Assembly (NCBI GenBank): GCA_028705415.1
Contig: JAQWDO010000001.1
Location: 1 to 38,492, forward strand
Direction: 5' to 3'
From: Dehalococcoidales bacterium
GTDB taxonomy: Bacteria; Chloroflexota; Dehalococcoidia; Dehalococcoidales; CSSed11-197
Length of the DNA: 38,492 bases
Each line of letters starts with the position of its first letter. Positions within the stretch are counted from its first letter, which is position 1. Of this stretch, positions 527 to 21,509 are shown one piece after another. The notes under the pieces are model-generated. The model was not told the origin of the DNA. It worked only from the letters and a program-made list of their open reading frames with translations, and did not search any database. The translations under genes and the position numbers were made by a program.

Positions 527-551
527 AATAAAACCGGGAAGGGAAATATTA

Positions 552-2456: not shown

Positions 2457-2477
2457 CCGCCCCGTATAACATGGTTA

Positions 2478-2909
2478 TTACTGTCGGCGGTGCCGTCTTG
2501 TTTGGGCTTCCCGTATCATGTGGCTTGCACAATACGGGCACTCTTCCGGTTCCTTATAATCGTTGCGGTACAGTACTCGCCAGCTTTCACCGCAATTACA
2601 GCATTTCCAGCGAACCCTTATGCCTCGCACGTCTCCGGCAGAAACCACAATTATCATGTCTTCGCTCAAAGCAACAGCAACCTTGCGCCTTGCCTCTGCC
2701 AATATTCGCTGGAAGGTAGATCTGGCAACATCCATCGTCTCACACGCCTGGGTTTGATACTGGCCTTCAACCTCAACCAGCCTGAGTGCTTCCAGCTCTT
2801 CCGGCAGCAAGACAACCGTTTGACAGCTGGACAACCTGACACCGACTGGCTTGAATATCTTAACCTGGTGGTGTTTCCTCAAGCGCCGATTCTTGCGGGG
2901 TCTCGGCAT
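2478..2909 (-). CDS. DUF134 (UPF0251) family putative DNA-binding protein with C-terminal CxxC...CxxC zinc ribbon
   Basis: The N-terminus MPRPRKNRRL..FKPVGV..VVLLPEELEALRLVEVEGQYQTQACETMDVARSTFQRILAEARRKVAVAL is the typical DUF134 pattern. The C-terminal extension carries KCCNCGESW...ECPYCASH. The start overlaps the stop of the upstream ORF (TAATG). Confidence 0.8.
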   Translation of the reverse strand: MPRPRKNRRLRKHHQVKIFKPVGVRLSSCQTVVLLPEELEALRLVEVEGQYQTQACETMDVARSTFQRILAEARRKVAVALSEDMIIVVSAGDVRGIRVRWKCCNCGESWRVLYRNDYKEPEECPYCASHMIREAQTRRHRRQ

Positions 2910-3172
2910 TATTCACTCTCAGCATGCCTTCTGTGCGGATGCCTTCTTCTGCCGCCGGCTGCGACCTGTGGCTTGTTTTCGCCCCCACCGCATGGCAGCC
3001 AGACCAGTTCAGCTCCAGTACTTTTGGCAATCGCTTCCAGCTCGGCTTTCCTCAAATGGGTCTTGTAAAACTTCAGCTTGCTATCATCACCATTAACACA
3101 TACAACGGCAAAACGGGGCTCCCCGTCACCTGCGGTAACAGCACTGCGCTCTCTAACAAAAATCTGCTTCAT
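2909..3172 (-). CDS. Small hypothetical protein (87 aa) with basic Arg/His-rich C-terminal tail, first gene of the DUF134 operon
   Basis: AAAGGAGGAAGCC precedes the ATG at 3172. A near-consensus promoter lies upstream and the gene is translationally coupled to the DUF134 gene. The tail reads GGRRRHPHRRHAESE. No family recognised. Confidence 0.6.
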   Translation of the reverse strand: MKQIFVRERSAVTAGDGEPRFAVVCVNGDDSKLKFYKTHLRKAELEAIAKSTGAELVWLPCGGGENKPQVAAGGRRRHPHRRHAESE

Positions 3173-3205
3173 GGCTTCCTCCTTTGTATATCATTTAGTT
3201 CGTAG

Positions 3206-3225
3206 TTATGGGTATATACCCATAA
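3206..3225. promoter_or_regulatory. Perfect 20-bp palindrome TTATGGGTATATACCCATAA, candidate operator
   Basis: I checked by hand that the sequence equals its own reverse complement. It overlaps the -10/TSS region of the minus-strand promoter at 3224-3252. Confidence 0.6.
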
Positions 3226-3252
3226 TATAATACCATATAATGCCGCTGTCAA
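3224..3252 (-). promoter_or_regulatory. sigma70-type promoter of the 87-aa/DUF134 operon (TTGACA-N17-TATATT)
   Basis: The minus strand reads cTTGACAgcggcattatatggtatTATATTatggg. The -35 is at 3247-3252 and the -10 at 3224-3229, about 50 nt upstream of the ATG at 3172. Confidence 0.6.
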
Positions 3253-3324
3253 GATGTTGGAGGCCTTTCAAGCGGTGTAATTTTTTTACAAGCCAGGGCT
3301 TGCCAGCAGCTTTTTCAGCTTTGT

Positions 3325-3353
3325 TTGACTCTTAATAACATTTGAACTAGAAT
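3325..3353 (+). promoter_or_regulatory. sigma70-type promoter upstream of the Hyf-like operon (TTGACT-N17-TAGAAT)
   Basis: TTGACT at 3325-3330, a 17-nt spacer, then TAGAAT at 3348-3353. Confidence 0.45.
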
Positions 3354-3392
3354 AACTGACATACGAACATAGACCCTTATTTTTTACAAGAC

Positions 3393-3424
3393 AGGAAGCC
3401 CTGACGGGGCTTCCTTTGCTTTTG
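3393..3424 (+). terminator. Intrinsic-terminator-like hairpin inside the leader of the Hyf-like operon (possible attenuator)
   Basis: AGGAAGCCC-tgacg-GGGCTTCCT gives a 9-bp stem with a 5-nt loop (3393-3415). It is followed by TTGCTTTTGGG, and the operon ATG lies 25 nt further on at 3449. Confidence 0.5.
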
Positions 3425-3448
3425 GGCATGCTGGTTTTTAATATTTAA

Positions 3449-5386
3449 ATGATAACAACCCTGCTCCTGGTTAGTATGGCCATTATTCTGGCGGCTGGCG
3501 TTTTAGCCCTTTCAGGCTTGATTCAACCGAATATTGTCTGGCGCCGTTTGAGCCTGTTGTTGATGCTGCCCGGCCTGGCAGGAATAATTGTTGCCAGCGT
3601 TTGGGTTATGGCCGGGGATTTGCAGGTTTTGATCCCCCTTTTTGAAGTCAGTGAACTGCTGGCGGTAAATTTCTACCTGGACAGGCTATCTGCATTTTTC
3701 ATACTGATAATCTGCGTTGTCAGCGCGTGTGTAACGGTATACTCCCTGGGTTATGTCGAACACCAGCCGGAACCTGCGCAGCGCCAGTGGTCTATCGGGC
3801 TGATGGCGATATTTATCCTATCGATGATAGGGGTAGTTGCCTCAGAAAACTACTTCGCCCTCCTGCTTAACTGGGAAATCATGTCCCTGAGTTCCTTCTT
3901 CCTGGTGATTCTTGAACGTAAACAAGCCGAAAATATCAAGGCTGGGATCTACTATCTGGTGATGACTCAGCTCAGCACTGTTTTCCTGTTTTTCTCCTGC
4001 CTTGTAACCTACTCTTCAACCGGGTCCATGGCTGTAAATGCTTCTATGCCCGCCATGGCGAATCTTAGCCTGGTTCTTGCCGGCTTCCTGCTTGGCTTTG
4101 GCACCAAGGCTGGCCTTATCCCTTTGCACAAATGGCTTCCATATGCCCATTCAGCAGCCCCTTCCAATATATCTGCACTGATGTCGGGAGTTATGCTTAA
4201 GGTAGCAATATATGGGCTGGCCAGAATCACACTAAACCTGGAATCTATACCATTAGGCTGGGGTTTAGTACTACTGGGGATGGGAACGCTCTCAGCAGTC
4301 CTGGGCGTGATTTACGCGCTTAAAGAGCATGACCTTAAGAAGCTGCTTGCCTACCACAGTATTGAGAATATTGGCATTATCGTCATAGGCCTGGGGCTTT
4401 ACAGTATTTTTACATTTTACAGCCTGGAATTACTGGCGCTCGCGAGCCTGGCCGGTGCTCTTTTCCACTCCCTCAACCATGCGCTTTTTAAAGCCCTGCT
4501 TTTTATGTGCTCCGGCAACGTAATCAATGCTGTTTCAACCCGCAATATTGAACAAATGGGAGGGTTGGTCAAACGTATGCCAGCCACTGCTGGCATCTTT
4601 TTGGTGGGAGCGGCTGCCATTTCTGCCCTGCCGCCTTTAAACGGCTTTGCCAGTGAGATTTTATTATTCCAGTCATACCTGGGAGCTTTCCAGATACCCA
4701 GTTTATTTGTTGCAATCGGGGTTTTTGCCTCCCTTGCAGCATTTGCCCTGATGAGCGCCCTTGCTGCTGCCTGTTTTGTAAAGGCATTCGGGATCACCTT
4801 TCTGGCCATACCCCGTTCTGAAGCGGCCGCACAAGCTCACGAGGCAAGTCCAAGCATGATAGCCGCTCCGGCAATCCTGGCCGGCCTTTGTGTAATACTC
4901 GGTGTCGGCTCATTTCATTTCTTTAACATGATGGGGCTTAACCTGCCTGTACCCAATTTGCTTCCGGTAACCATTATAATCATCACAGTTGTGCTCATTG
5001 CGTTCTTAATGATCCGGTATCTGAAAATCCCGGTTAGAAAAATTGAAACCTGGAATTGCGGCTCAGCAAATATCGACTCCCGCACGGAATACACAGCTAC
5101 CGGGTTTTCTCAACCGATACTTAATTTTTTCAGCCCGATTTTTCGCACCAGAGAGATGGTTGAACGAAGTTTTACCGACGTTTTCAGGTCAGTTCTCCAC
5201 CATGGTAAGGCAGAAATTAAAACCATGCAGATTTTCGAAGAGCGTATCTATCTGCCTGTTGCCCGGTTTGCCATGCGTATAGGGCGCTGGGTATCCAACT
5301 GGCAAAACGGAGATCTGGATAACTTTATCCTGTACGGATTTATTGCCATTGTCATTTCTATCCTGGCAGCCGGATGGTGGTTGTAG
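3449..5386 (+). CDS. HyfB/HycC-like (NuoL/Mrp antiporter-type) membrane subunit
   Basis: 645-aa polytopic protein with the NuoL/HyfB pattern (PLHKWLPYAHSAAPSNISALMSGVMLKVAIYGLAR, AYHSIENIGII). First gene of a tightly packed six-gene operon. No clear Shine-Dalgarno before the ATG at 3449, so the start is uncertain. Confidence 0.85.
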   Translation: MITTLLLVSMAIILAAGVLALSGLIQPNIVWRRLSLLLMLPGLAGIIVASVWVMAGDLQVLIPLFEVSELLAVNFYLDRLSAFFILIICVVSACVTVYSLGYVEHQPEPAQRQWSIGLMAIFILSMIGVVASENYFALLLNWEIMSLSSFFLVILERKQAENIKAGIYYLVMTQLSTVFLFFSCLVTYSSTGSMAVNASMPAMANLSLVLAGFLLGFGTKAGLIPLHKWLPYAHSAAPSNISALMSGVMLKVAIYGLARITLNLESIPLGWGLVLLGMGTLSAVLGVIYALKEHDLKKLLAYHSIENIGIIVIGLGLYSIFTFYSLELLALASLAGALFHSLNHALFKALLFMCSGNVINAVSTRNIEQMGGLVKRMPATAGIFLVGAAAISALPPLNGFASEILLFQSYLGAFQIPSLFVAIGVFASLAAFALMSALAAACFVKAFGITFLAIPRSEAAAQAHEASPSMIAAPAILAGLCVILGVGSFHFFNMMGLNLPVPNLLPVTIIIITVVLIAFLMIRYLKIPVRKIETWNCGSANIDSRTEYTATGFSQPILNFFSPIFRTREMVERSFTDVFRSVLHHGKAEIKTMQIFEERIYLPVARFAMRIGRWVSNWQNGDLDNFILYGFIAIVISILAAGWWL

Positions 5387-5391
5387 TAATT

Positions 5392-6324
5392 ATGACAGTA
5401 ATCTACTACCTGCTAAACCCGCTTTTTATTCTTTTGATATCTCCCCTGTTTATGGGCATTATCAAAAAAATAAAGGCAATGGCCCAGGGCAGAACCGGCG
5501 CTCCGGTCTGGCAGCCATATTTTACCCTGCACAAGCTGTTTAAAAAAGAGATAATTTATTCCGATAATTCTTCGTTCATAATGAAAGTGGCTCCATACTT
5601 AAACATCGGTTTTACAATTGGGGCCGCTACCCTGGTACCGGTGCTGTTTTTACCCCCCGAAGGGTCAGTCCCGGCAAATATCATCCTGTTTTTGTACCTG
5701 TTGGTATCCGCCAAGTTCTTTATGGCGCTGGCCGGGCTTGATGCCGGCTCCGTTTTTGGCGGAATGGGCAGCTCGCGCGAGATGAGCCTTTCTGCCATTG
5801 CCGAACCGATTACCATAATCACCTTTGCAGCTATCGCCTTCGTGCTCAATACTACTGATATCACACAAATGTTTGCCACAACTGCATCAAACTCGCTGAC
5901 GGAATTTCCCACGCTCCTGCTTACCGGGGTGTCACTGTTTATTATTTTAATCATAGAGACGGCGAGGGTACCGGTAGACAACCCGGAAACCCACCTTGAG
6001 CTTACCATGGTCCATGAAGCCATGATTATTGAGCAATCCGGCCCCAACCTGGCCCTGATGGAGATCAGCCATGCTGTCAAACAGACACTGCTCATGGCTG
6101 TGCTGATAAACCTGCTCTTTCCACTGGGAATGCCTGATAGTTTTACGTTTGCAGGTGTTGCCCTGGGTATGGTCAGTTTTGCTGCTAAAGGCTCCATACT
6201 ATGCGTGATAATAGCCATTTTTGAAACCAGCCTGGCAAAAATCAGGTTTTTCCGCCTGCCAAGCTTCTTTATGGTGGCTCTTTTTCTTTCTTTTGTAACC
6301 ATTGTATTTGAGCTGATATTATGA
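5392..6324 (+). CDS. HyfC/HycD-like (NuoH-type) membrane subunit
   Basis: LISPLFMGIIKKIKAMAQGRTGAPVWQPYFTLHKLFKKE matches the HycD/NuoH N-terminal signature. The listed ORF starts at 5374. I prefer the ATG at 5392 (MTVIYY), just after the upstream stop and following GGTGG. Confidence 0.85.
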   Translation: MTVIYYLLNPLFILLISPLFMGIIKKIKAMAQGRTGAPVWQPYFTLHKLFKKEIIYSDNSSFIMKVAPYLNIGFTIGAATLVPVLFLPPEGSVPANIILFLYLLVSAKFFMALAGLDAGSVFGGMGSSREMSLSAIAEPITIITFAAIAFVLNTTDITQMFATTASNSLTEFPTLLLTGVSLFIILIIETARVPVDNPETHLELTMVHEAMIIEQSGPNLALMEISHAVKQTLLMAVLINLLFPLGMPDSFTFAGVALGMVSFAAKGSILCVIIAIFETSLAKIRFFRLPSFFMVALFLSFVTIVFELIL

Positions 6325-6998
6325 ACGACCCGCTTTTGATTGCGGTTATAATAAGGATACTGCTGGTGCTGATCCTGGGCACTGCAGTGCTTGTGATTAC
6401 CCAGCGCTCCCTGAGATCTCTTTTTACAATCTACTCGATCCAGTCTCTTTTGCTGGCATTACTGGCACTGGTTCTGTACTGGCAGGAAGGGATTTTCAGC
6501 CTGCTTTTAATCAGCTTGCTGACACTGGTCAGCAAGGCAATAGTTATCCCCCTGTTTTTACGCCGCCTTTTACGGAAAATACCTATTAAAAGAGACCTGG
6601 AATTCAGATATTTGACCCCTATCAGCTCGATACTGGTCAGCATCGGGTTACTTTTTGGTGTTTACCGGTTATTTTACAAGTTGAGCGACGAGTTGAATTT
6701 TGAGCCCCTTTTCCTGCTTGGCACCGTCATCGGAGTATCTCTTGCGCTTATGGGGATGATGGTAATTTTTAGCCGCCGCAAGGTTATCACCAAAACCGTC
6801 GGTTACCTTACCATGGAAAACGGGGTATTGCTTTTCGGTTTATTTGTGGCCGAACTGCCTTTTATTATTGAAGTACTGATTCTGGTGGACTTGCTGATGA
6901 TTCTGGTACTGGCCAGCCTGCTGGCTTTTGGTATAGATTCCACCATTGAATCTTTCCACGAACGCTTGCGTAACTTTGGAATGGAAGCAGAAGAATAA
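6321..6998 (+). CDS. HyfE-like small polytopic membrane subunit
   Basis: 225 aa with about 7 hydrophobic segments. Its size and position between the NuoH-like and NuoN-like genes match hyfE. It overlaps both neighbours (4 nt and 1 nt). Confidence 0.65.
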   Translation: MNDPLLIAVIIRILLVLILGTAVLVITQRSLRSLFTIYSIQSLLLALLALVLYWQEGIFSLLLISLLTLVSKAIVIPLFLRRLLRKIPIKRDLEFRYLTPISSILVSIGLLFGVYRLFYKLSDELNFEPLFLLGTVIGVSLALMGMMVIFSRRKVITKTVGYLTMENGVLLFGLFVAELPFIIEVLILVDLLMILVLASLLAFGIDSTIESFHERLRNFGMEAEE

Positions 6999-8473
6999 TG
7001 GCTGAGAATATTATCTGGATATCGGGCATACCAGCGCTTCTTTCATCAGGCCTGGTGCTGTTGGTTTCCCGCTGTTTCAAACGTGCCGGCAACCATCACT
7101 ACAGCTTGCTGGCCATAATACAGGCGGTAATATATATGGGGCTGAGCATCTGGATGGCCAGCTTAAACCGCCCGGTAGAATTATCCGGCAATGGTTATTT
7201 TTATATGGATACGCTGGCTGTTTTTGAAATACTGATTACGGCTGCGTTATTTTTACTGGCAGCAATATACTCCCGCGGGTATATAGACAGCCTGCTCAAG
7301 CAAGAAGAAATCGAAGAATCACTGCTTCCCGTTTTCTATGGGTCTTTCTGTTTGCTTGAGACAGTTCTTATAATGGGCTTTTTATCCAACAACCTGGCGC
7401 TTTTATGGATATTTATAGAACTCTCAACCATATTTTCAGCCGTGCTTATAGTTACTCTGAAAGCCAGGGAAAATATTACCGCTGCGCTTAAATACGTTTT
7501 CGTGGCATCTACCTCCATGCTGTTTACTTTCATGGGCATCATCATTCTGTTTAGTTTGAGCCAGGAAGCAATCAGCGGCGGGAGCCTCAACTGGAACAGC
7601 CTGATGGAAAACGCAGCCGGTTTTAACCAGAGTGCTTTCAACGTCGCCTTTATCCTGATGCTTATCGGTTTTGGAGCCAAATCGGGGATGGTCCCCTTCC
7701 ATACCTGGATGCCGCAAGCGTATGCTAAAGCTCCTTCAGCGGTATCGGTAATGTATGGCCCGGTACTTAACCTGGGGCTGTTTGCCATTATCCGCTTATT
7801 TTCTATCAGTCATCAGACGGGTGACACCGGGCTGGTGAATACAACCCTGCTTTCGATTGGAACGCTGACCATAGGTGTGGCAGCTTTTAGCCTGCTTGCC
7901 AGAACCAATACCAAAAAAGTCATTGCATTTTCTGCCATAGAACAAACAGGGCTTGCCCTGGTTGGTATGGGGCTCGCCAGCCCGCTGGCATTTTTCTGGG
8001 TGGTTTTCAACCAGCTTGCCCAACCCTTTATTAAAGCACTGCTGTTTTTTTCAGCAGGAATATGGCACCGGCAATATCTTTCCAACAAATTCAGTGCAGT
8101 TATCCAGCCGATGAGCCATCAGCCACTCGCCAGCATCGGGCTTATTGCCGGCATAGCCGCGGCTGCAGGTACGCCGCTGCTGCCGGTTTTTCTGGTCAAA
8201 TTCAATATACTCAGCGTGCTGGCAGAAAAACCACTGTTGTTCTTCGTAGTTCTTTTATTATTTATGGTTGTGGCTGCCGGCATGGGATATTACTTCCTCA
8301 GGGCTTTCAGCCAGAAGGGTGAAGCAGAAATCGGTCTGTTTAAAACACCGCTTTCAATGAAAGTGCCGATAATCGTTTGTATGGTGATTATTCTGATCCT
8401 CGGCGTGCACGTACCCTCGTGGTTAACCGGCATTATAAATACTATTTGTGCTGAACTGGGGATATGCGCATGA
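6998..8473 (+). CDS. HyfF-like (NuoN/NuoM antiporter-type) membrane subunit
   Basis: 491 aa with the antiporter-like motif GAKSGMVPFHTWMPQAYAKAPSAVSVMYGPVLNLGLFAIIR. Confidence 0.85.
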   Translation: MAENIIWISGIPALLSSGLVLLVSRCFKRAGNHHYSLLAIIQAVIYMGLSIWMASLNRPVELSGNGYFYMDTLAVFEILITAALFLLAAIYSRGYIDSLLKQEEIEESLLPVFYGSFCLLETVLIMGFLSNNLALLWIFIELSTIFSAVLIVTLKARENITAALKYVFVASTSMLFTFMGIIILFSLSQEAISGGSLNWNSLMENAAGFNQSAFNVAFILMLIGFGAKSGMVPFHTWMPQAYAKAPSAVSVMYGPVLNLGLFAIIRLFSISHQTGDTGLVNTTLLSIGTLTIGVAAFSLLARTNTKKVIAFSAIEQTGLALVGMGLASPLAFFWVVFNQLAQPFIKALLFFSAGIWHRQYLSNKFSAVIQPMSHQPLASIGLIAGIAAAAGTPLLPVFLVKFNILSVLAEKPLLFFVVLLLFMVVAAGMGYYFLRAFSQKGEAEIGLFKTPLSMKVPIIVCMVIILILGVHVPSWLTGIINTICAELGICA

Positions 8474-10038
8474 TGGATATCGTTACAACCGGGCTAATGA
8501 CTCACCTTGAATCCAGGCAAATTGGCAGCCGTTTCTCCCGGGGGGAAGGTGGGGAATACTATTTGCGCGTTCCCGGCGATGGAATCATAGAAGCTGCCGG
8601 ATGGCTGGCTAACCGGGAAGATCTTGCCCTTATCGGCATTTGGGCAGTTCCAGGCCATGAAAAAGATTGTCTTGAACTATACTATGCCTTTGAATTAAAG
8701 CAACCGTCCCCAGCCCTGGTTATGATTGCCGAGGTTAAAAACAACCAGGCGCCTTCCATATACAAAATATTCCCGGCAGCAATCAACTTTGAACGCAGAG
8801 CCAGAGACTGGTACGGCCTGGATTTTACCAGCCTGCCCGATACCCGCCGCCTGCTCCTGCACGAAGCCTACCCGGCAGATTTCCACCCAATGGTCGATTC
8901 AGATCCAGAGACACTTTCAAGTAACCTGGCCACTACCGAATACTCATTCAAGAAGTTTGAAGGCGAAGGCCTTTACCAGGTTCCGGTAGGCCCTGTGCAT
9001 GCCGGAATTATAGAACCGGGCCATTTTCGCTTCAGCGTTATCGGGGAAACCATTTTCAACCTCGAGTTAAGGCTGGGATATAAACACCGGGGCTTAAACA
9101 AACTGGCTGAAGGTAAAACCGTAGCTGAGGTAAACAAATTATCAGAGAGCATCAGCGGGGATGAAAGCGCGGTTAATGCCTGCTCTTTCTCACTGGCAGT
9201 AGAAAAGATAGCCGGCGCTGAACTCCCAAAACGAGCATGGGAGTTGCGAACGATCCTCCTTGAAATGGAGCGCCTGTACTCTCACCTTGGGGATCTGGCA
9301 GGAATGCTGGTAGATGTAGGTTACCCAATCGGGGCTTCTCCGTTCTTTATTCTTCGAGAGGAAATAATGCGCTGGAACGCCACCTTTACCGGTTCCAGAT
9401 TTCTCAAGGGTGCAATTATACCGGGTGGATTAAGCCGGGATATAGAAGATGGTATGCTCCAGAAGTTCAAGTTTTTTCTGGTTACTTTTTCCCGCCGCAT
9501 GAGAAAGGCACTGTCTGATGTTGATGAATCTGCCTGGGTAATTGACAGGTTCGAAACTACCGGAATTGTATCACCGGAACTGGTAGCGCCTCTGAGCCTC
9601 AGCGGACCGGTAGCCCGTGCTTCCGGCTATGATGGTGATACCAGGCAGTTGCACACTTACGGAGTTTATACGGGTTTAAAGTATACGATACCGGTTAAAA
9701 CCTCCGGTGACGTGCTGGCCAGGTTCAGGGTAAAAGCAGAGGAAGCGGCTTCTTCAATTGATATAATAAGTGAAACCATTGCCCGTTGCTCTCCCGGGCC
9801 GGTTTTTTCGGGTTTTGACCCGGGATCCGGCCAGGCCATAGCAATGCTTGAAGCTCCACGAGGCCGGAATATTCACTGGCTGAGAGTAAAAAACGGCACA
9901 GTTGAGCACTGGGAGGTGATCACCGCTTCCTTCTGTAACTGGCCGGCCATTGAACATGCCGTCATAAACAACATCCTGCCGGATTTTCCGGTGATAAATA
10001 AAAGCTTTAATTTATCCTACGCTGGAAACGATCTTTAA
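8464..10038 (+). CDS. HycE/HyfG-like large subunit (NuoC-NuoD fusion) lacking all [NiFe]-ligand cysteines
   Basis: The NuoC-like part has FPAAINFERRARDWYGLDF. The NuoD/HycE-like part has VGPVHAGIIEPGHFRFSVIGE and LEAPRGRNIHW. SESISGDESAVN (9142-9177) replaces the RxCGxCxxxH motif. The terminal FNLSYAGNDL (10006-10035) replaces DPCxxCxxR/H. Confidence 0.85.
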   Translation: MRMMDIVTTGLMTHLESRQIGSRFSRGEGGEYYLRVPGDGIIEAAGWLANREDLALIGIWAVPGHEKDCLELYYAFELKQPSPALVMIAEVKNNQAPSIYKIFPAAINFERRARDWYGLDFTSLPDTRRLLLHEAYPADFHPMVDSDPETLSSNLATTEYSFKKFEGEGLYQVPVGPVHAGIIEPGHFRFSVIGETIFNLELRLGYKHRGLNKLAEGKTVAEVNKLSESISGDESAVNACSFSLAVEKIAGAELPKRAWELRTILLEMERLYSHLGDLAGMLVDVGYPIGASPFFILREEIMRWNATFTGSRFLKGAIIPGGLSRDIEDGMLQKFKFFLVTFSRRMRKALSDVDESAWVIDRFETTGIVSPELVAPLSLSGPVARASGYDGDTRQLHTYGVYTGLKYTIPVKTSGDVLARFRVKAEEAASSIDIISETIARCSPGPVFSGFDPGSGQAIAMLEAPRGRNIHWLRVKNGTVEHWEVITASFCNWPAIEHAVINNILPDFPVINKSFNLSYAGNDL

Positions 10039-10040
10039 AA

Positions 10041-10562
10041 ATGCACAAAATCATAAGAAATATATTCAGTAGAAAGCTTTCATCCGTTAAAGACCCGACC
10101 ACGGAAGATTTCGAAATTACTGGCTTACAACTCAAGGAACATGTATGCAGGGTTTTTGGCCGCAGCCTGGCCATACGCGAGCTCGATTCAGGCTCGGATA
10201 ACTCTGCTGAGATCGAGCTAAACAACCTCAGCACTCCACATTATGATATCGAAAGGTTTGGAGTTAGCTTTGTTGCTTCTCCAAGGCATGCTGATGTGCT
10301 CCTTATCACCGGGGCAGTTACCCGCAACATGCAGGAAGCTGTAATGAAAACTTATGCCGCAATGCCCCGCCCCTGCTGGGTGATTGCCGTTGGGGACGAT
10401 GCCTGTGGCGAAGGGCTATTAAATGGCAGCTACGGAGTTCTTGGTGGAGCAGACAAGGTCCTGCCAGTAGATTTTAAAATCCCCGGAAACCCACCCGCTC
10501 CATTAGAAATAATGCAAGGCCTGGCTTCATTCATGGAAAGCATTCGCCAGCCGAAAGCCTGA
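10041..10562 (+). CDS. HycG/HyfI-like (NuoB-type) small subunit lacking three of four [4Fe-4S] cysteine ligands
   Basis: YDIERFGVSFVASPRHADVLLITGAVTRNM and VLPVDFKIPGNPPAP are NuoB/HycG signatures. GSDNSAE replaces GSCNGCE, and PGNPP replaces PGCPP. Only C122 (GDDACGEG) remains near a ligand position. Confidence 0.8.
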   Translation: MHKIIRNIFSRKLSSVKDPTTEDFEITGLQLKEHVCRVFGRSLAIRELDSGSDNSAEIELNNLSTPHYDIERFGVSFVASPRHADVLLITGAVTRNMQEAVMKTYAAMPRPCWVIAVGDDACGEGLLNGSYGVLGGADKVLPVDFKIPGNPPAPLEIMQGLASFMESIRQPKA

Positions 10563-11102: not shown

Positions 11103-11795
11103 TCACTGAATTGAATTCTCCAGCTTTAAAATATCGTTAATGGTAATATTCGAACCTTTAAACTCAATAATACCATCATCACGCATCAAGGCCATTTCTC
11201 TGGATAAAGACGGTCGCGGGATATTCAGATAATCTGCAAGCTCGTGTCTTTTCATTGCCAGAACGAAATCTTTATTACCTGTATCCAGATATAAATCAAG
11301 CAAATAGCTGCTGATCCTGCCTCTAATGTTTTTAGCCGAGATATGCTCAATTTTTTTATCTAACATTGAAGCCCGGTTGGACAAAATCTGAAGCATGTTC
11401 ATAATGAGCGTGCTGTGTGAAGTACAGATATTTGAGCAAGTCCCGGTTATCTTGTCCGGCGGCAGAAAAAGCAGGACGCAATCCTCCTGGGCTATAACCG
11501 TCATAGGCCAAATTCTGTGGTCGGAAAAGGCTACAATCTCCCCGAATATATCACCAGCTTCGAGTATCCCCATAATAATACGGTTGCCGGAATATGTTTC
11601 CTTTGTAAGCGCCAACTTGCCACAGGCAATAATGCCGATGCCTTGAAACGGCTGGCCATGGACAGCGACAATCTCCCGTTGTTTATATTCGCGCACTGCT
11701 GGCTTCAGACAGCCAAGCATAACATTCAGAGAATCGCTGGAGATATTTCGAAAAAGTAAAGCAGACTTTAAAGTATCAATCCATTCCAAATACAT
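11103..11795 (-). CDS. Crp/Fnr-family transcriptional regulator (HcpR-like by context)
   Basis: It has an N-terminal cNMP-binding-like beta-roll (GDIFGE) and a C-terminal HTH (RHELADYLNIPRPSLSREMALMRDDGII). It is divergent from hcp. Confidence 0.8.
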   Translation of the reverse strand: MYLEWIDTLKSALLFRNISSDSLNVMLGCLKPAVREYKQREIVAVHGQPFQGIGIIACGKLALTKETYSGNRIIMGILEAGDIFGEIVAFSDHRIWPMTVIAQEDCVLLFLPPDKITGTCSNICTSHSTLIMNMLQILSNRASMLDKKIEHISAKNIRGRISSYLLDLYLDTGNKDFVLAMKRHELADYLNIPRPSLSREMALMRDDGIIEFKGSNITINDILKLENSIQ

Positions 11796-11812
11796 CTAAA
11801 ACCTTCTATATG

Positions 11813-11826
11813 GTAACACACGTTAC
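11813..11826. promoter_or_regulatory. Inverted repeat GTAAC-N4-GTTAC, candidate Crp/Fnr (HcpR-type) box
   Basis: A perfect 5-N4-5 palindrome in the 110-bp crp/hcp divergent region. It has the same geometry as the FNR box TTGAT-N4-ATCAA. -10-like hexamers (TATTAG 11846-11851, GATTAT 11851-11856) lie 20-30 bp downstream toward hcp. Confidence 0.45.
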
Positions 11827-11905
11827 AGCTTTCATTTTGCCATTGTATTAGATTATATCTGACAGTGCAAATGGACTGTAAATAAAAAAAATTGGGAGGC
11901 AAATA

Positions 11906-13468
11906 ATGAATGACATGTTCTGTTTTCAATGCGAGCAGACAGCCAGGGGTACCGGCTGTACCAAAACAGGTGTCTGTGGCAAGAACCCTGATGTATCGCG
12001 AAAGCAAGACGAGTTGACCTGTTCCCTGATAGGACTGGCACGCTCTGCTGAGGGGAAAATACCGGGCAAAAACGCTGATGAACTGATGATGCAGGGCCTT
12101 TTCGCAACCCTGACCAACGTCAACTTCGATCCTGAACGCATTGATGAGCTTAAGATGCGGATTGAAACCGAAAAGGGGAAACTTGGCGGTGGCAAAGATT
12201 ATGACCCGGATAACCTCTTCCAGGGTGAAACTGATATTGTTTCTCTCCGCTCGACACTCCTTTTTGGAATGAGGGGCATGGCGGCGTATGCCTGGCATGC
12301 TCATATACTCGGTAAGGATGATTCCGAAGTTACTGCCTGGCTTTACAAAGGGATGAGAGAGATCGGCGCAGATCACGAAGTGGATAAGTGGTTATCCCTG
12401 ATTATGGAATTCGGACAGATCAATCTCAAGTGTATGGCCTTGCTGGATGAAGCCAACACTTCAGCTTACGGACACCCCGTACCTGCCACGGTAAGCATGA
12501 AAGTAGAAAAGGGGCCGTTTATCGTAGTTACTGGCCATGACCTGCTGGACCTCAAACACCTTCTCGAGCAAACAGAAGGTAAGGGAATCAATATTTACAC
12601 CCATGGCGAGATGCTGCCTGCACACGGCTACCCGGAACTGAGGAAGTATTCCCATCTGAAAGGCAATTACGGAACTGCGTGGCAAAACCAGCAGAAGGAA
12701 TTCGACCACCTGCCAGCACCAATTCTTTACACCACCAACTGTATCATGCCACCAAGGGAAACCTATGCCGAAAACATATTCACCACAGCAGTGGTTGGTT
12801 ATCCGGGGCTCAAGCATGTGCCGGACAAGGATCAAAAGAAAGACTTCACTCCGGTTATTGAAAAAGCGCTTGAGTTGGGTGGCTGGGACGAGGACAAGCA
12901 GTTCACCGGGATTAACGGGGGAACAGAACTGATGACCGGCTTTGCCAGAAATACGGTGATGGGAGTGGCAGACAAAGTTATTGAAGCGGTGAAATCAGGA
13001 GATCTCAAGCACATCTTTTTGGTGGGCGGCTGTGATGGAGCCAAACCTGGACGTAACTACTATACTGAATTCGTAAAACAGACTCCGGCCAATACGATAG
13101 TACTGACCCTTGCCTGTGGCAAATTCCGCTTTAACGACCTCAACATTGGCGAGCTTGCAGGCCTGCCACGTTTACTCGACATGGGGCAATGCAATGATGC
13201 CTATTCAGCCATCCATGTAGCTGCTGCACTGGCAAAGGCATTTGATTGCAGTGTCAACGACTTACCGCTTTCCATGGTGATCTCATGGTACGAACAAAAA
13301 GCAGTTTGTATTTTGCTTACGCTTCTGTCTCTTGGAATCAAGAACATCTACCTTGGGCCTTCATTGCCTGCTTTCATATCTTCCGCTGTGCTTAATGTCC
13401 TGGTGGAAAAGTTCGACCTTAAACCAATTTCAACTCCCGAAGCTGATATGAAGGCTATGTTAGGGTAA
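11906..13468 (+). CDS. hcp: Hybrid cluster protein (hydroxylamine reductase)
   Basis: The N-terminus MFCFQCEQTARGTGCTKTGVCGK is the Hcp cubane-cluster motif. GGGAGG lies 8 nt before the ATG. 520 aa. Confidence 0.9.
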   Translation: MNDMFCFQCEQTARGTGCTKTGVCGKNPDVSRKQDELTCSLIGLARSAEGKIPGKNADELMMQGLFATLTNVNFDPERIDELKMRIETEKGKLGGGKDYDPDNLFQGETDIVSLRSTLLFGMRGMAAYAWHAHILGKDDSEVTAWLYKGMREIGADHEVDKWLSLIMEFGQINLKCMALLDEANTSAYGHPVPATVSMKVEKGPFIVVTGHDLLDLKHLLEQTEGKGINIYTHGEMLPAHGYPELRKYSHLKGNYGTAWQNQQKEFDHLPAPILYTTNCIMPPRETYAENIFTTAVVGYPGLKHVPDKDQKKDFTPVIEKALELGGWDEDKQFTGINGGTELMTGFARNTVMGVADKVIEAVKSGDLKHIFLVGGCDGAKPGRNYYTEFVKQTPANTIVLTLACGKFRFNDLNIGELAGLPRLLDMGQCNDAYSAIHVAAALAKAFDCSVNDLPLSMVISWYEQKAVCILLTLLSLGIKNIYLGPSLPAFISSAVLNVLVEKFDLKPISTPEADMKAMLG

Positions 13469-13602: not shown

Positions 13603-13678
13603 TGGTGGAGATAGGGGGATTCGAACCCCCGACCTCGGCGATGCGAACGCCGCGCTCTCCCAATTGAGCTATATCCCC
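13603..13678 (-). tRNA. tRNA-Ala (anticodon CGC)
   Basis: The reverse complement folds as a cloverleaf: GGGGATA-TA-GCTC-AATTGGGA-GAGC-G-CGGCG-TTCGCAT-CGCCG-AGGTC-GGGGG-TTCGAAT-CCCCC-TATCTCC-A-CCA. It has the G3:U70 alanine identity pair and an encoded CCA. Confidence 0.93.
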
Positions 13679-13796
13679 ACTGAGGAATTATTATAGCATA
13701 CGGCTACACCGGTTAAAATCAGCTTTACTCGTTCCGCTGATTTTCGGGGACTGCTTTCCTTGTTTGCCTTGCTCGATTATTGCTGGCGTCAAGTCA

Positions 13797-13854
13797 TGTT
13801 TCCGTATGTACGGGCACAATCCGTGTGAGATTCTTCGCTTACGCTCTGAATGAC
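13797..13854 (-). repeat. Solo inverted copy of the repeat-family core
   Basis: The minus strand reads GTCATTCAGAGCGTAAGCGAAGAATCTCACACGGATTGTGCCCGTACATACGGAAACA. At 58 nt it has the same length and end motifs as the core at 1420-1477. Confidence 0.8.
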
Positions 13855-13958
13855 ATATCAAGAGGTGATTACCCAATACGGTTAAAATCCTGCTCGGCCA
13901 GCTTGAAACCGATAAATCGGGCAATCTGGGATAATTATAATCCTGCCGGAAGCCTTTC

Positions 13959-13987
13959 TTGTAAGCTAAAAACAATGTTGTTATACT
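13959..13987 (+). promoter_or_regulatory. sigma70-type promoter of gatB (TTGTAA-N17-TATACT)
   Basis: TTGTAA at 13959-13964, a 17-nt spacer, then TATACT at 13982-13987. The -10 ends only 12 nt before the gatB ATG. Confidence 0.45.
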
Positions 13988-13999
13988 TAACAGGTTAAA

Positions 14000-15457
14000 A
14001 TGAACCCAGAATTTGAAACCGTAATTGGCCTTGAAGTACACGCCCAGCTTACCACACGCAGCAAAATGTTTTGCCGGTGCGGCTCTGATTATGCCAGCGC
14101 TGAACCCAACACTCGTACCTGCCCGGTTTGCCTTGGTATGCCCGGAGTCCTGCCGACAATTAACCGGCAGGCAGTTGAAAATACCATCCTCACCGCCCTC
14201 GCTCTTAACTGCCAGGTCCCGGAGCGCGCCAAGTTCGACCGCAAAAATTACCCTTACCCGGACCTTGTAAAAGGTTATCAGATAAGTCAGTACGATGAGC
14301 CATTCGGGTTGGGTGGCTGGATAGAAGTTGAAACCGATGGGAATTCCCGCCGTTTGGGTATTACCCGTGTACACCTTGAAGAAGATGTCTGCAAACTCCT
14401 CCACCGCGGCACCGGCAGCAATGGATACAGCCTGGTTGATGCCAATCGAAGCGGAGTTCCTCTTATGGAAATAGTAAGCGAGCCGGATATGCGCTCTCCC
14501 GCCGAAGCCCGTAACTATCTGATAAAACTCAGAAGCATTTTGCGTTATCTGGGAGTATCGCTGGCCAACATGGAAGAAGGCAGTTTCCGCTGTGATGCCA
14601 ATATTTCCATCCGGCCGAAGGGTTCGGAAGAGCTGCTTGCCAAGGTTGAAGTAAAAAACATGAACAGCCTGAAAGCCGTATACCGCGCGCTTGAATTCGA
14701 GGCTGAACGTCAGAGAAAGGCATTCATCAACGGTGAAAAAATAAACCAGGAGACTCGCGGCTGGGTAGAAGAAACCGGAAAAACCGTCAGCCAGCGCAGC
14801 AAGGAATATGCACATGATTACCGGTATTTTCCAGAGCCCGATTTGCCTCCTCTTGAAGTCAGCCGGGAATGGGTAGAAAATATCCGGTGCCGGATGCCGG
14901 AGCTTCCCGATCAGCGGTGCCAGCGTTTTATAAAAGATTATTCATTATCTGATTACGACGCCGGAATACTCACTGCAAGTAAAGAAGCGGCAGATTATTT
15001 TGAAACCGTACTCAGTGAGTCCGGGCGCTCCCCCAAAGAAGTCGCCAACTGGATAGCCGGGCCGGTTTCCGGGATTATAAATGCTCAGGGCATTGATTTT
15101 GAAGACTTTGGCAAAAAGGTTTCACCGGAAGAAATGACCGGGTTACTTAAGCTTGAAGGCAGTGGTTCAATCAATATGGCAACAGCCAAAACAGTACTGG
15201 AAGAAATGTTTAACACCGGAAAGAGCGCGGCAACCCTGGTTAATGAAAAGGGATTGACCCAGATCAGCGGTTCTGAGGAACTGGACCAATTTGCCGTTCA
15301 AGTTATTGAAGCCAATCCATCCGCAGTAGCAGATTTCAAGGCCGGCAAAGAACAGGCTCTCAAGTTTTTAATCGGGCAGATGATGCGGCTGACCAGAGGA
15401 AGAGCCAACCCGGAAATTGCTGCGGATATTTTAAAACGCAAGCTGGAGGAATATTAA
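14000..15457 (+). CDS. gatB: Asp/Glu-tRNA amidotransferase subunit B
   Basis: [55 protein letters not shown] and the C-terminal GatB/YqeY-like region. Confidence 0.95.
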
Positions 15458-21317: not shown

Positions 21318-21509
21318 TCAAAGCTGAGCAATAGAAATTGCGCCAGTGGGGCAAGTGCGTTCGCATCCACCGAGACGATCGCACTTGTTTTCATCCGTTA
21401 CCCGGCATATATCGGAAGCGTCGATAAAAAGGATTTTTGCCGGGCACATACTGACGCACGCGCCACAGCCGGTGCACAGATCTGAGTTTATGTTAACTAT
21501 ATGATTCAA
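21318..21509 (-). CDS. Small 2x[4Fe-4S]-type ferredoxin
   Basis: CTGCGACVSMCP (CxxCxxCxxxCP) plus C-x7-C-x5-C-x3-CP. The start overlaps the radical SAM stop by 4 nt. Confidence 0.8.
   Translation of the reverse strand: MNHIVNINSDLCTGCGACVSMCPAKILFIDASDICRVTDENKCDRLGGCERTCPTGAISIAQL

What the first reader, a model, noticed from the sequence alone, without database searches (positions are those of the whole stretch)
8464..10038. Hydrogenase-type large subunit with both [NiFe] cysteine pairs replaced
**Seen in sequence**
- The 524-aa protein is clearly a HycE/HyfG-type NuoC-NuoD fusion (FPAAINFERRARDWYGLDF, VGPVHAGIIEPGHFRF, LEAPRGRNIHW).
- Where group 4 large subunits carry R-x-C-G-x-C-x3-H it reads SESISGDESAVN (aa 227-238, nt 9142-9177).
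- It ends FNLSYAGNDL-stop (nt 10006-10035) where D-P-C-x-x-C-x-x-R/H should be. That is C to S and C to G in an otherwise alignable context.
- There is no C-terminal extension for endopeptidase processing.
- The whole protein has four Cys (69, 240, 442, 491) and none is in a CxxC motif.

**Established knowledge**
- The Ni-Fe centre is ligated by exactly these four cysteines.

**Inference**
- The protein cannot be a hydrogenase catalytic subunit.
- It resembles the NuoD situation, or the comparative-genomics class called Ehr (energy-converting hydrogenase related). To my knowledge no Ehr function has been shown experimentally.
Basis: partly seen in the sequence, partly recalled or inferred. Interest (0 to 1): 0.75.

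Follow-up and report, generated by a model that had tools for sequence, protein, structure and literature searches.

The report
Cofactor-free hydrogenase-like (Ehr) membrane complex
This gene encodes the hydrogenase-like large subunit of a six-gene, complex-I-like membrane complex (class "Ehr") in a Dehalococcoidales bacterium; the complex has lost every cysteine that would hold nickel-iron or iron-sulfur centres, so it cannot be a hydrogenase, and the class is already known with its function still unknown.

Summary
ORF 8464-10038 is a HycE-type NuoC-NuoD fusion. The four [NiFe] cysteines of E. coli HycE (C241, C244, C531, C534) align to S231, E234, S518 and G521. The protein ends three residues later, and there is no frameshift.

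The losses go beyond the large subunit:
- The small subunit (10041-10562) has also lost all four [4Fe-4S] ligands (D53, A56, D120, N150).
- The six-gene operon (3449-10562) has no ferredoxin-like subunit.
- The complex therefore has no recognisable redox cofactor site.

It is not decaying:
- The replacement motifs (SGDE[ST]..N; NLSYAG[NT]D[LM]-stop; GSDN, GDDAC, PGNPP) are nearly invariant in about 120 relatives.
- dN/dS is 0.15 for the large subunit and 0.35 for the small one.
- The ion-channel residues of the membrane subunits are conserved.
- The same operon occurs in Dehalogenimonas, Methanomassiliicoccales and Margulisbacteria.

Related loci show three states: a 4-Cys hydrogenase, Cys-less Ehr that keeps its Fe-S chain, and this cofactor-free type.

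This matches the published Ehr class, whose function was still called unknown in 2025. My best guess, which is inference, is a redox-independent ion translocator whose peripheral arm serves as a gate. It is a new member of a known kind and of moderate interest.

The parts
3449..5386 (+). Subunit A: HyfB/HycC/NuoL-type antiporter-like membrane subunit (645 aa)
   Evidence: Pfam Proton_antipo_M/N. NCBIfam NF006418 'hydrogenase membrane subunit' scores 762.8 bits, just under its 794 cutoff. Best PDB match is 7z0s_C HycC, 3e-66. The TM5 Glu (WEIMS), TM7 Lys (GTKAG) and TM12 Lys (HALFKALLF) are conserved across related loci; the TM8 Lys (MLKVA) in most of them.
5374..6324 (+). Subunit B: HycD/NuoH-type membrane subunit (316 aa)
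   Evidence: Pfam NADHdh. Best PDB match is 7z0s_D HycD, 6.7e-35. 'GSSRE...EP' and the loop 'PVDNPETHLELTMVHE' are almost invariant across loci.
6321..6998 (+). Subunit C: HyfE-like small membrane subunit (225 aa)
   Evidence: NCBIfam NF008556 'hydrogenase 4 membrane subunit', 5.7e-17, below cutoff. No PDB relative by sequence. The Glu of 'MENG' and of 'I[IV]E' are invariant in all loci.
6998..8473 (+). Subunit D: HyfF/NuoN-type antiporter-like membrane subunit (491 aa)
   Evidence: Pfam Proton_antipo_M. NCBIfam NF006427 scores 497.9 bits against a 511 cutoff. The TM5 Glu, TM7 Lys and TM12 Lys are conserved. The TM8 position is Asn/Ser, as it also is in the 4-Cys relative L008.
8464..10038 (+). 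Subunit E (the finding): HycE-type NuoC-NuoD fusion large subunit without [NiFe] ligands (524 aa)
   Evidence: AlphaFold2 model has pLDDT 86.1 and pTM 0.89. Best Foldseek match is 7z0s_E, TM 0.87. dN/dS is 0.15 against the 89%-identical orthologue in L001.
9142..9177 (+). Relic of the L1 motif R-x-C-G-x-C-x3-H, now SESISGDESAVN (S229, S231, D233, E234, N238)
   Evidence: Alignment to HycE. E228, S231, G232, D233, E234 and N238 are invariant in 120 homologues. D233 is present in 80 of 80 'SGD' representatives and absent from the 4-Cys relatives.
10006..10035 (+). Relic of the C-terminal D-P-C-x-x-C-x-x-R motif, now FNLSYAGNDL-stop (S518, G521)
   Evidence: S518, Y519 and D523 are invariant, and G521 is at least 90% conserved.
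10041..10562 (+). Subunit F: HycG/NuoB-type small subunit without [4Fe-4S] ligands (173 aa)
   Evidence: Pfam Oxidored_q6. Best PDB match is 7z0s_G, 7e-28. AlphaFold2 pLDDT is 80.4. Foldseek matches 6cfw_J MbhJ with TMt 0.81, rmsd 2.6 A. dN/dS is 0.35.
10182..10220 (+). Small-subunit relic of 'D-x-G-S-C-N-G-C-E', now LDSGSDNSAEIEL (C->D53, C->A56)
   Evidence: Alignments to HycG and NDUFS7 and to the Cys-bearing relatives L007 and L008. D49, G51, S52, D53, N54 and E57 are invariant in 94 homologues.
10386..10418 (+). Small-subunit relic of 'G-x-C-A', now AVGDDACGEGL (C->D120)
   Evidence: G118, D119, D120 and A121 are invariant.
10479..10496 (+). Small-subunit relic of 'P-G-C-P-P', now IPGNPP (C->N150)
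   Evidence: PGNPP in 113 of 121 sequences.

Best explanation
**Shown**
- The ORF is the large subunit of an Ehr-type (energy-converting-hydrogenase-related) complex encoded by six co-directional, end-to-end genes (3449-10562).
- The genes encode two antiporter-like subunits, a NuoH-like subunit, a HyfE-like subunit, the NuoCD-like large subunit and the NuoB-like small subunit.
- This sub-type has lost the four [NiFe] cysteines, the four [4Fe-4S] cysteines of the small subunit, and the ferredoxin-like subunit or domain that its nearest relatives still carry. It has no recognisable electron path and is not a hydrogenase.
- It is nevertheless a conserved, selected, folded machine.

**Inferred (mechanism)**
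- The complex most likely works without redox chemistry, as an ion-gradient-linked H+ (or H+/Na+) translocator or antiporter.
- The transport would use the intact Lys/Glu relay of the membrane arm.
- The peripheral NuoB/C/D-like module would be kept as the cap or gate of the NuoH-like channel.
- The former metal sites were rebuilt into an invariant carboxylate/amide-rich patch: large subunit S231, D233, E234, S518, D523; small subunit D53, N54, D119, D120, N150. This patch could bind a cation or protons.
For: **Identity and loss of ligands**
- Large subunit.
- Small subunit.
- A CxxCxxCxxxC[PGA] scan finds no ferredoxin motif in or beside the operon in the window, L002 or L010.

**Not a relic**
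- The replacement motifs are invariant in about 120 large-subunit and about 120 small-subunit homologues at 50-100% identity.
- dN/dS is 0.15 for the large and 0.35 for the small subunit.
- The models are confident and keep the HycE and MbhJ folds.

**Membrane machinery intact**
- Subunits A and D keep the TM5 Glu, TM7 Lys and TM12 Lys.
- The NuoH-like loop 'PVDNPETHLELTMVHE' and the HyfE-like Glu residues are conserved across bacterial and archaeal loci.

**Autonomous module**
- The same six-gene order occurs in Dehalogenimonas, other Dehalococcoidales, Methanomassiliicoccales and Marinamargulisbacteria, with unrelated flanks.

**States seen in relatives**
- L008: four Cys, with a separate Fer4 subunit and a Cys-bearing small subunit.
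- L005, L007, L009, L011: Cys-less 'ER[IV]SGD' large subunit, with a Fer4 subunit or Fer4-NuoB fusion that keeps all cluster cysteines.
- Window, L001-L004, L006, L010: the L1 Arg is lost, there is no Fer4, and the small subunit has no cluster ligands.

**Literature**
- Ehr is defined as group-4-like without CxxC and of unknown function (PMC10284858, PMC12342949, PMC6147122, PMC6349859).
Against: **Limits on the mechanism**
- Nothing here measures transport. The mechanism rests on which residues are conserved and on analogy with complex I, MBH and Mrp.
- The Mrp-specific subunits MrpB, E, F and G, thought to carry Na+, are not encoded. An Mrp-like Na+/H+ exchange is therefore not directly supported.
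- Keeping three peripheral subunits under strong selection only as a 'cap' is not obviously economical. The invariant acidic patch could equally be a catalytic or non-cysteine metal site.

**Gaps in this work**
- I had no coordinates of the model, so I could not verify that the listed residues cluster in space.
- A partner encoded elsewhere in the genome cannot be excluded from a 38-kb window.
Confidence: 0.55

Rival explanations
1. It is still an energy-converting oxidoreductase. Electrons or a substrate would arrive from a partner encoded elsewhere (for example a formate dehydrogenase, as proposed for Margulisbacteria Ehr), or a redox metal would be bound by the invariant Asp/Glu/His/Asn residues instead of cysteines.
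For: - An FDH-Ehr partnership was proposed in PMC6349859.
- Geobacter Ehr subunits are more abundant on formate (PMC7894505).
- The Ehr relatives with the Arg retained keep a complete Fer4 plus NuoB-type cluster chain, so the ancestral Ehr was probably redox-driven.
- The replaced positions are invariant rather than drifting.
Against: - In the window type, all four small-subunit cluster ligands and the Fer4 module are gone. No wire exists from a surface partner to the large subunit.
- No redox gene is conserved next to the operon in six loci.
- No cysteine outside the lost motifs is conserved across the window-like class: C491 is C3/R3/G1 there.
Confidence: 0.2
2. It is a NuoD-like quinone- or other lipophilic-acceptor-reducing module, that is, a small complex I.
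For: - NCBIfam and Pfam score it against NuoD/49-kDa models.
- Foldseek matches NuoCD of E. coli complex I with TM about 0.8.
Against: - The residues aligned to Nqo4 Tyr87 and His38 are G232 and I183.
- There is no N2 cluster.
- The operon has no NuoA, J, I, E, F or G genes.
- All NuoD models score far below their cutoffs: 202 against 360 bits, and 153 against 459.
- Sequence is much closer to HycE (8.7e-62) than to any NuoD (at best 2.7e-35).
- From my own knowledge, not tested here: Dehalococcoidia are reported to lack quinone biosynthesis.
Confidence: 0.03
3. It is a decaying, non-functional remnant of a group 4 hydrogenase operon.
For: All metal ligands in two subunits are lost, and one subunit is missing relative to 4-Cys relatives.
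Against: - There are six intact ORFs, overlapping or separated by at most two bases.
- dN/dS is 0.15 and 0.35.
- Identical replacement motifs are kept down to about 50% identity and across Bacteria and Archaea.
- Membrane-arm catalytic residues are conserved.
Confidence: 0.02
4. It is a real hydrogenase, and the missing cysteines are an artefact of misalignment, sequencing error or frameshift.
For: None found.
Against: - The HMMER alignment to HycE is unambiguous on both sides of each motif.
- The raw DNA shows the stop at 10036-10038 and the next gene at 10041.
- 120 independent homologues share the same motifs and terminus.
- A bona fide group 4 hydrogenase beside an Ehr operon in L005 shows what intact motifs look like: ERVCGICSFHH ... 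DPCICCTDR-stop.
Confidence: 0.005

Closest known systems
Ehr, energy-converting (Ech) hydrogenase-related complexes. First described in Geobacter sulfurreducens (GSU0739-0745; Coppi 2005) and surveyed by Marreiros et al. 2013. I could not read either paper; both are cited through PMC6147122, PMC6349859 and PMC7894505.
   Same: [quoted passage not shown]
- The operon has NuoL/N-like, NuoH-like and HyfE-like membrane subunits plus large and small subunits.
- The function is unknown.
- Published trees place Ehr near group 4f (PMC10284858), consistent with my tree.
   Different: - The window's sub-type has additionally lost the small-subunit [4Fe-4S] ligands and the ferredoxin-like subunit or domain. 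Other Ehr members that I inspected keep them (L005, L007, L009, L011).
- I could not establish whether this distinction is already in the two founding papers.
E. coli formate hydrogenlyase, HycE/HycG/HycD/HycC (PDB 7z0s), and the Hyf (hydrogenase-4) operon
   Same: - These are the best sequence and fold matches for four subunits: HycE 8.7e-62 with TM 0.87, HycG 7e-28, HycD 6.7e-35, HycC 3e-66.
- The NuoC-NuoD fusion is shared.
- The HyfB/E/F-like extra membrane subunits are shared with Hyf.
   Different: - There are no [NiFe] ligands and no C-terminal processing extension.
- The HycG-type cluster is missing.
- There are no HycF, HycB or HyfA ferredoxin subunits and no FdhF partner nearby.
Unnamed 4-Cys sister group of group 4 hydrogenases (e.g. 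P0124 in L008). It is probably HydDB group 4f, but this was not classified here.
   Same: - About 41% identity.
- Same gene order (membrane subunits, then large, then small subunit) and the same 'NKSF.L.Y...D'-type C-terminus without an extension.
   Different: L008 has CG[AV]C and C..C motifs, a separate 114-aa 2x[4Fe-4S] subunit and a small subunit with all four Cys.
Mrp-type multisubunit cation/proton antiporters (PDB 6z16, 7qru, 7d3u)
   Same: Subunits A and D are homologous to MrpA/MrpD and keep the Lys/Glu relay. Like Mrp, the complex has no redox cofactor.
   Different: There are no MrpB, E, F or G homologues. The complex has a NuoH-like subunit and a three-domain peripheral arm that Mrp lacks.
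Pyrococcus MBS/MBX (MbsL, PDB 6u8y) and complex I NuoD
   Same: These are hydrogenase-derived large subunits that no longer bind NiFe.
   Different: - Both keep the NuoB-type cluster and a NuoI-type subunit, and both reduce a substrate.
- Similarity is much weaker (6u8y_L 3e-23; Nqo4 8.7e-33) than to HycE.
- The quinone-ligating residues are absent.

Membership tests
Group 4 [NiFe]-hydrogenase (catalytic large subunit) | N-terminal L1 motif R-x-C-G-x-C-x3-H supplying two Ni/Fe ligands | tested here: not met
   The motif aligns to S229-I-S231-G-D-E234-S-A-V-N238. The same residues occur in 120 homologues.
Group 4 [NiFe]-hydrogenase (catalytic large subunit) | C-terminal D-P-C-x-x-C-x-x-[HR] motif supplying the other two ligands | tested here: not met
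   The motif aligns to N516-L-S518-Y-A-G521-N-D-L-stop.
Group 4 [NiFe]-hydrogenase (catalytic large subunit) | Large-subunit fold, with the NuoC-NuoD fusion seen in HycE/HyfG | tested here: met
   Pfam domains. AlphaFold2 pTM 0.89. Foldseek 7z0s_E TM 0.87.
Group 4 [NiFe]-hydrogenase (complex) | Small subunit with four Cys ligating the proximal [4Fe-4S] cluster | tested here: not met
   The four Cys are replaced by D53, A56, D120 and N150.
Group 4 [NiFe]-hydrogenase (complex) | 2x[4Fe-4S] ferredoxin-like subunit (HycF/NuoI type) in the operon | tested here: not met
   No such ORF lies between 3449 and 10562. The only CxxCxxCxxxCP motif in the window is at 21476, inside a radical-SAM gene.
Ehr (energy-converting hydrogenase-related complex) | Large subunit homologous to group 4 hydrogenases but lacking the NiFe-binding CxxC motifs | tested here: met
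   The definition is as given in PMC10284858, PMC12342949 and PMC6349859.
Ehr (energy-converting hydrogenase-related complex) | Operon with Mrp/NuoL-type antiporter-like subunits, a NuoH-like subunit, a HyfE-like subunit, and large and small subunits | tested here: met
   The composition matches the Geobacter EhrA (NuoL-like), EhrC (HyfE-like), EhrL and EhrS subunits listed in PMC7894505.
Ehr (energy-converting hydrogenase-related complex) | Phylogenetic placement among Cys-less sequences next to group 4f hydrogenases | tested here: inconclusive
   In a neighbour-joining tree of 131 representatives, the query sits in a Cys-less 'SGD' clade that branches after the 4-Cys group. The method is rough, no HydDB reference labels were available, and the '4f' identity of the sister group is inferred from the literature.
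Complex I NuoD / 49-kDa subunit | Quinone head-group ligands (Tyr87 and His38 in T. thermophilus Nqo4) and an adjacent N2 cluster in NuoB | tested here: not met
   These align to G232 and I183. The N2 ligands are absent. NuoD models score far below their cutoffs.
MBS/MBX (MbsL/MbxL) | Closest similarity to MbsL/MbxL and a 13-gene operon with MbxA-G Mrp-like subunits | tested here: not met
   6u8y_L scores 3e-23, against 8.7e-62 for HycE. There are only six genes.
Mrp cation/proton antiporter | MrpA/D-type subunits with the conserved Lys/Glu relay | tested here: met
Mrp cation/proton antiporter | MrpB, C, E, F and G small subunits | tested here: not met
   None was detected in the operon. Only a HyfE-like subunit is present.

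The most novel reading that the evidence does not exclude
The window type would be a natural 'redox-less complex I'.

- The NiFe pocket and the [4Fe-4S] pocket were each rebuilt into invariant carboxylate/amide sites: large subunit S231, D233, E234; small subunit D53, N54, D119, D120, N150.
- Together these would form a cytoplasm-facing cation or proton binding site.
- Binding there would drive or gate the NuoH-like channel and the two antiporter-like subunits.
- The conformational coupling machinery of complex I would then run on an ion gradient or a bound ligand instead of electrons.
- Alternatively, the site could hold a non-cysteine metal centre doing new chemistry.

If either is true, it would be a previously uncharacterised class of transporter, or enzyme, spread across Dehalococcoidia, Methanomassiliicoccales and Margulisbacteria, with further homologues labelled as Aenigmarchaeota and Woesearchaeota.
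Probability: 0.25. Interest if true: 0.8.

Novelty: new member of a known kind. Interest (0 to 1): 0.45.

Why it matters
**Annotation.** Proteins of this family are named 'Ni,Fe-hydrogenase III large subunit', 'formate hydrogenlyase subunit 5', 'hydrogenase HycE' or 'NADH-quinone oxidoreductase subunit C' in public records. Metabolic reconstructions of Dehalococcoidia and other anaerobes can therefore over-count hydrogenases.

**Biology.** The function of Ehr has been open since 2005.
- The cofactor-free sub-type sharpens the question, because it removes every electron-transfer explanation.
- What remains is a complex-I-like coupling machine that must be doing something else.
- It occurs in cultured Dehalogenimonas species, so the question can be tested experimentally.
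- It could also inform the debate on how the peripheral-arm/membrane-arm interface of complex I drives ion translocation.

Tried and rejected
**Rejected readings**
- A hidden C-terminal CxxC through frameshift or sequencing error is rejected by the raw DNA and by 120 identical termini.
- I looked for a conserved redox partner next to the operon. The window's flanks (cupin-like ORF, Crp/Fnr regulator, hybrid-cluster protein, amino-acid kinase) have no homologues beside the operon in five related loci (the fragment L001 carries only the cupin-like ORF). Pfam on 18 flanking ORFs of L002, L003, L004, L006 and L010 gave unrelated functions.
- I considered a surviving Cys pair, large-subunit C491 with small-subunit C122. 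C491 is not conserved in the wider window-like class, so I dropped it.

**Searches that gave nothing**
- A Crp/HcpR-type palindrome (TTGTGA-N6-TCACAA, up to 2 mismatches) gave one hit, inside a gene, no better than chance.
- Rfam on the whole window found only a tRNA and nothing for the operon leader.
- The HyfE-like subunit has no relative in the PDB by sequence.

**Literature problems**
- My first search was swamped by 'electronic health record' papers, and the EhrL/EhrS search mostly was too.
- Marreiros 2013 and Coppi 2005 are not held. I could not check whether the Fe-S-less sub-type was already described there.

**Not verified**
- I could not verify by sequence that the Dehalococcoides mccartyi 'Hyc' operon (DET1570-1575) belongs to this sub-type.
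- Cluster look-ups gave annotations but few organism names.

Full report
**1. The observation**

Its only cysteines are at 69, 240, 442 and 491. Pfam sees a NuoC-like domain (Complex1_30kDa, residues 35-143) fused to a NuoD-like domain (Complex1_49kDa). The NiFeSe_Hases match is just below threshold.

The best solved relative is HycE of the E. coli formate hydrogenlyase (7z0s_E, E = 8.7e-62). MbhL, Aquifex NuoCD and Thermus Nqo4 follow at about 1e-33 to 1e-35.

In the HMMER alignment, HycE 'LSDRVCGICGFAHS' pairs with 'LSESISGDESAVNA', and 'SLDPCYSC' pairs with 'SFNLSYAG'. After allowing for the +12 offset of the tagged PDB chain, the mapping is:
- C241 -> S231
- C244 -> E234
- C531 -> S518
- C534 -> G521
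- the L1 Arg and His -> S229 and N238

The DNA ends ...GGA AAC GAT CTT TAA, and the next gene starts at 10041. All 120 closest database homologues (50-100% identity) carry the same xExxSxDE[ST]xxN motif (nearly always AExxSGDE[ST]xxN) and end in xNxSYxxxDx-stop. Misregister, frameshift and sequencing error are therefore excluded.

As a positive control, a genuine group 4 hydrogenase sits next to an Ehr operon in locus L005. It shows ERVCGICSFHH ... DPCICCTDR-stop.

**2. The surroundings**

The ORF is the fifth of six co-directional, end-to-end genes:

| Gene | Coordinates | Type |
|---|---|---|
| A | 3449-5386 | HyfB/HycC/NuoL-like |
| B | 5374-6324 | HycD/NuoH-like |
| C | 6321-6998 | HyfE-like |
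| D | 6998-8473 | HyfF/NuoN-like |
| E | 8464-10038 | large subunit |
| F | 10041-10562 | HycG/NuoB-like small subunit |

There is no HycF/NuoI- or HycB-type ferredoxin gene. The only CxxCxxCxxxCP motif in the whole window lies in a radical-SAM gene at 21476.

The small subunit has also lost its cluster. I aligned it to HycG and NDUFS7 and to Cys-bearing relatives:
- 'D-x-G-S-C-N-G-C-E' is 'DSGSDNSAE' (C -> D53, C -> A56).
- 'G-x-C-A' is 'GDDA' (C -> D120).
- 'PGCPP' is 'PGNPP' (C -> N150).

The complex therefore has no recognisable site for any redox cofactor. The rest of the window holds housekeeping genes (gatB, gyrA, ruvCA, uvrB, ftsK, RNase J, tsaD, groES). The operon therefore sits in the core chromosome of a Dehalococcoidales bacterium.

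**3. Is it alive?**

Yes, on four lines of evidence.
- **Conserved replacements.** E228, S231, G232, D233, E234, N238, S518, Y519 and D523 are invariant in the large subunit. D49, G51, S52, D53, N54, E57, G118, D119, D120, A121, G149, P151 and P152 are invariant in the small subunit.
- **Purifying selection.** Against the 89%-identical orthologue in L001, dN/dS is 0.15 for the large and 0.35 for the small subunit.
- **Folds retained.** The large subunit model has pLDDT 86.1 and pTM 0.89, with Foldseek TM 0.87 to HycE. The small subunit model has pLDDT 80.4, with TMt 0.81 and rmsd 2.6 A to MbhJ. The low-confidence stretch 172-209 is the highly conserved N-terminal sheet and loop region. In homologous complexes this region contacts the small and NuoH-like subunits; that point comes from my knowledge of the complex I and FHL structures.
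- **Membrane arm intact.** Subunits A and D keep the TM5 Glu, TM7 Lys and TM12 Lys, and A usually keeps the TM8 Lys. The NuoH-like subunit keeps 'GSSRE..EP' and an almost invariant 'PVDNPETHLELTMVHE' loop. The HyfE-like subunit keeps two membrane Glu.

**4. Relatives and the path of loss**

The same six-gene order occurs in Dehalogenimonas, other Dehalococcoidales, Methanomassiliicoccales archaea and a Marinamargulisbacteria MAG. The flanks are unrelated. Further homologues are labelled Aenigmarchaeota and Woesearchaeota.

An exhaustive search of 50%-identity representatives gave 689 clusters at E <= 1e-30. Of the 131 near-full-length representatives among the best 150:
- 26 have all four Cys.
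- About 80 carry the 'xGD' motif (usually SGD).
- 25 are Cys-less in other ways.

Rooted on HycE-like sequences, a neighbour-joining tree places the 4-Cys group nearest the root, with the Cys-less sequences branching after it. The query's group (no Arg, E234, N238) sits inside the 'SGD' clade. The method is rough.

Gene contexts show three states:

| State | Loci | Large subunit | Ferredoxin module | Small subunit |
|---|---|---|---|---|
| (i) | L008 | 4 Cys | separate 114-aa 2x[4Fe-4S] protein | 4 Cys |
| (ii) | L005, L007, L009, L011 | Cys-less, 'ER[IV]SGD', Arg kept | Fer4 subunit or Fer4-NuoB fusion | all cluster Cys kept |
| (iii) | window, L001-L004, L006, L010 | Cys-less, Arg replaced | none | no cluster ligands |

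Loss of the L1 Arg therefore tracks loss of the neighbouring cluster in all 11 loci examined.

**5. Comparison with what is known**

This is the class called Ehr. The papers I could read say the following:
- It was first noted in Geobacter (Coppi 2005) and surveyed by Marreiros et al. 2013.
- Geobacter Ehr has the same kinds of subunits (NuoL-like, HyfE-like, large, small), is more abundant on formate, and its role 'has never been investigated' (PMC7894505).
- An FDH-Ehr partnership was proposed for Margulisbacteria (PMC6349859).

The NuoD analogy is weak. The positions of the quinone ligands are G232 and I183, there is no N2 cluster and there is no nuo context. It is not MBS/MBX-like either (6u8y_L scores only 3e-23, and there are six genes rather than thirteen).

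I could not read the two founding papers. I therefore cannot say whether the Fe-S-less sub-type has been described before.

**6. How it most likely works**

*Shown.* There is no NiFe site, no small-subunit cluster and no ferredoxin module. The folds are intact, selection is strong and the membrane relay is conserved. The operon is autonomous, with no conserved neighbour.

*Inferred.* Without an electron path, the only energy source visible in the sequence is an ion gradient.
- I therefore favour a redox-independent H+ (or H+/cation) translocator or antiporter that uses the two antiporter-like subunits and the NuoH/HyfE-like channel.
- The NuoB/C/D-like arm would be retained as the cap or gate of that channel.
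- The former metal pockets, now an invariant carboxylate/amide patch, could be a cation or proton binding site.

This is analogy, not measurement. The Mrp-specific small subunits are absent. I could not inspect model coordinates, and a partner encoded elsewhere cannot be excluded.

The main rival, at about 0.2, is a still-catalytic complex with an external partner or a non-cysteine metal site.

**7. Verdict**

This is a new member of a known but functionally uncharacterised class.

What this analysis adds is that this widespread sub-type is entirely free of redox-cofactor sites yet strongly conserved. That rules out hydrogenase and ordinary oxidoreductase roles. It also makes the 'Ni,Fe-hydrogenase III / formate hydrogenlyase / NuoC' names in public records misleading.

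Interest is moderate. The Ehr question is real, long-standing and testable in cultured Dehalogenimonas. This locus itself is one ordinary representative.

Noticed in passing
window 3325-3449: A promoter-like site (TTGACT-17-TAGAAT, 3325-3353) is followed by a strong 10-bp GC-rich hairpin with a T-run (3393-3415, AGGAAGCCCTGACGGGGCTTCCT TTGCTTTTGG). This lies only about 30 nt upstream of the operon's ATG at 3449. It looks like a terminator or attenuator inside the leader. Rfam has no match.
   Followed up: partly
window 2457-3448: There is about 1 kb without any Pfam-supported gene between the amino-acid-kinase gene and the operon. The long ORF 2490-3068 looks low in complexity and is probably spurious; it was not searched against Pfam. 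The overlapping 82-aa ORF 2471-2719 has no Pfam hit.
   Followed up: partly
window 11103-13468: A hybrid-cluster protein / hydroxylamine reductase gene (hcp, 11906-13468, +) has a divergently transcribed Crp/Fnr-family regulator (11103-11795, -) directly downstream of the Ehr operon. This arrangement is not conserved in related loci. A TTGTGA-N6-TCACAA search found nothing in the intergenic region.
   Followed up: partly
window 501-1298: A 265-aa protein has only weak, below-cutoff NCBIfam hits, to 'methanogenesis marker protein 11' and to archaeal tRNA(Ile2) agmatidine synthetase TiaS. This is unusual for a bacterial genome.
   Followed up: no
window 1620-2456: An amino-acid-kinase-family protein has its best, below-cutoff hits to archaeal-type UMP kinase and isopentenyl phosphate kinase. 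A canonical aspartate kinase with ACT domains lies separately at 16198-17415.
   Followed up: no
L005 13702-18761 (Methanomassiliicoccaceae MAG): Directly downstream of an Fe-S-retaining Ehr operon lies a second, bona fide group 4 [NiFe] hydrogenase cluster. The large subunit has ERVCGICSFHH ... DPCICCTDR-stop, the small subunit has its Cys, and there is a 911-aa antiporter-like ORF. This served as an internal positive control.
   Followed up: partly
L010 1-11158 (GCA_053535595.1): In this window-type Ehr locus the NuoH-like gene product is 545 aa, and no separate HyfE-like gene is called between it and the next antiporter-like gene. This suggests a fusion of the two (not checked). The operon is transcribed divergently from V-type ATPase genes (subunits I, c, E).
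   Followed up: no
window 9148-9150 (S229), compared across L001-L011: Presence of the L1 Arg (R-x-C-G-x-C position) in the large subunit coincides with presence of the [4Fe-4S] ligands in the small subunit. The Arg is kept in all 5 cluster-bearing loci and replaced by S, T, A or Q in all 7 cluster-less ones, counting the window.
   Followed up: yes
database homologues P0002-P0120 and P0271-P0390: Public names for this Cys-less family are 'Ni,Fe-hydrogenase III large/small subunit', 'formate hydrogenlyase subunit 5', 'hydrogenase HycE' and 'NADH-quinone oxidoreductase subunit B/C'. This is systematic mis-annotation as active hydrogenase or complex I.
   Followed up: partly
window 13606-13678 (-): A single tRNA gene (Rfam RF00005, 69 bits) lies between hcp and gatB. 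A long antisense ORF (13691-14815, -) overlapping gatB is almost certainly spurious.
   Followed up: no
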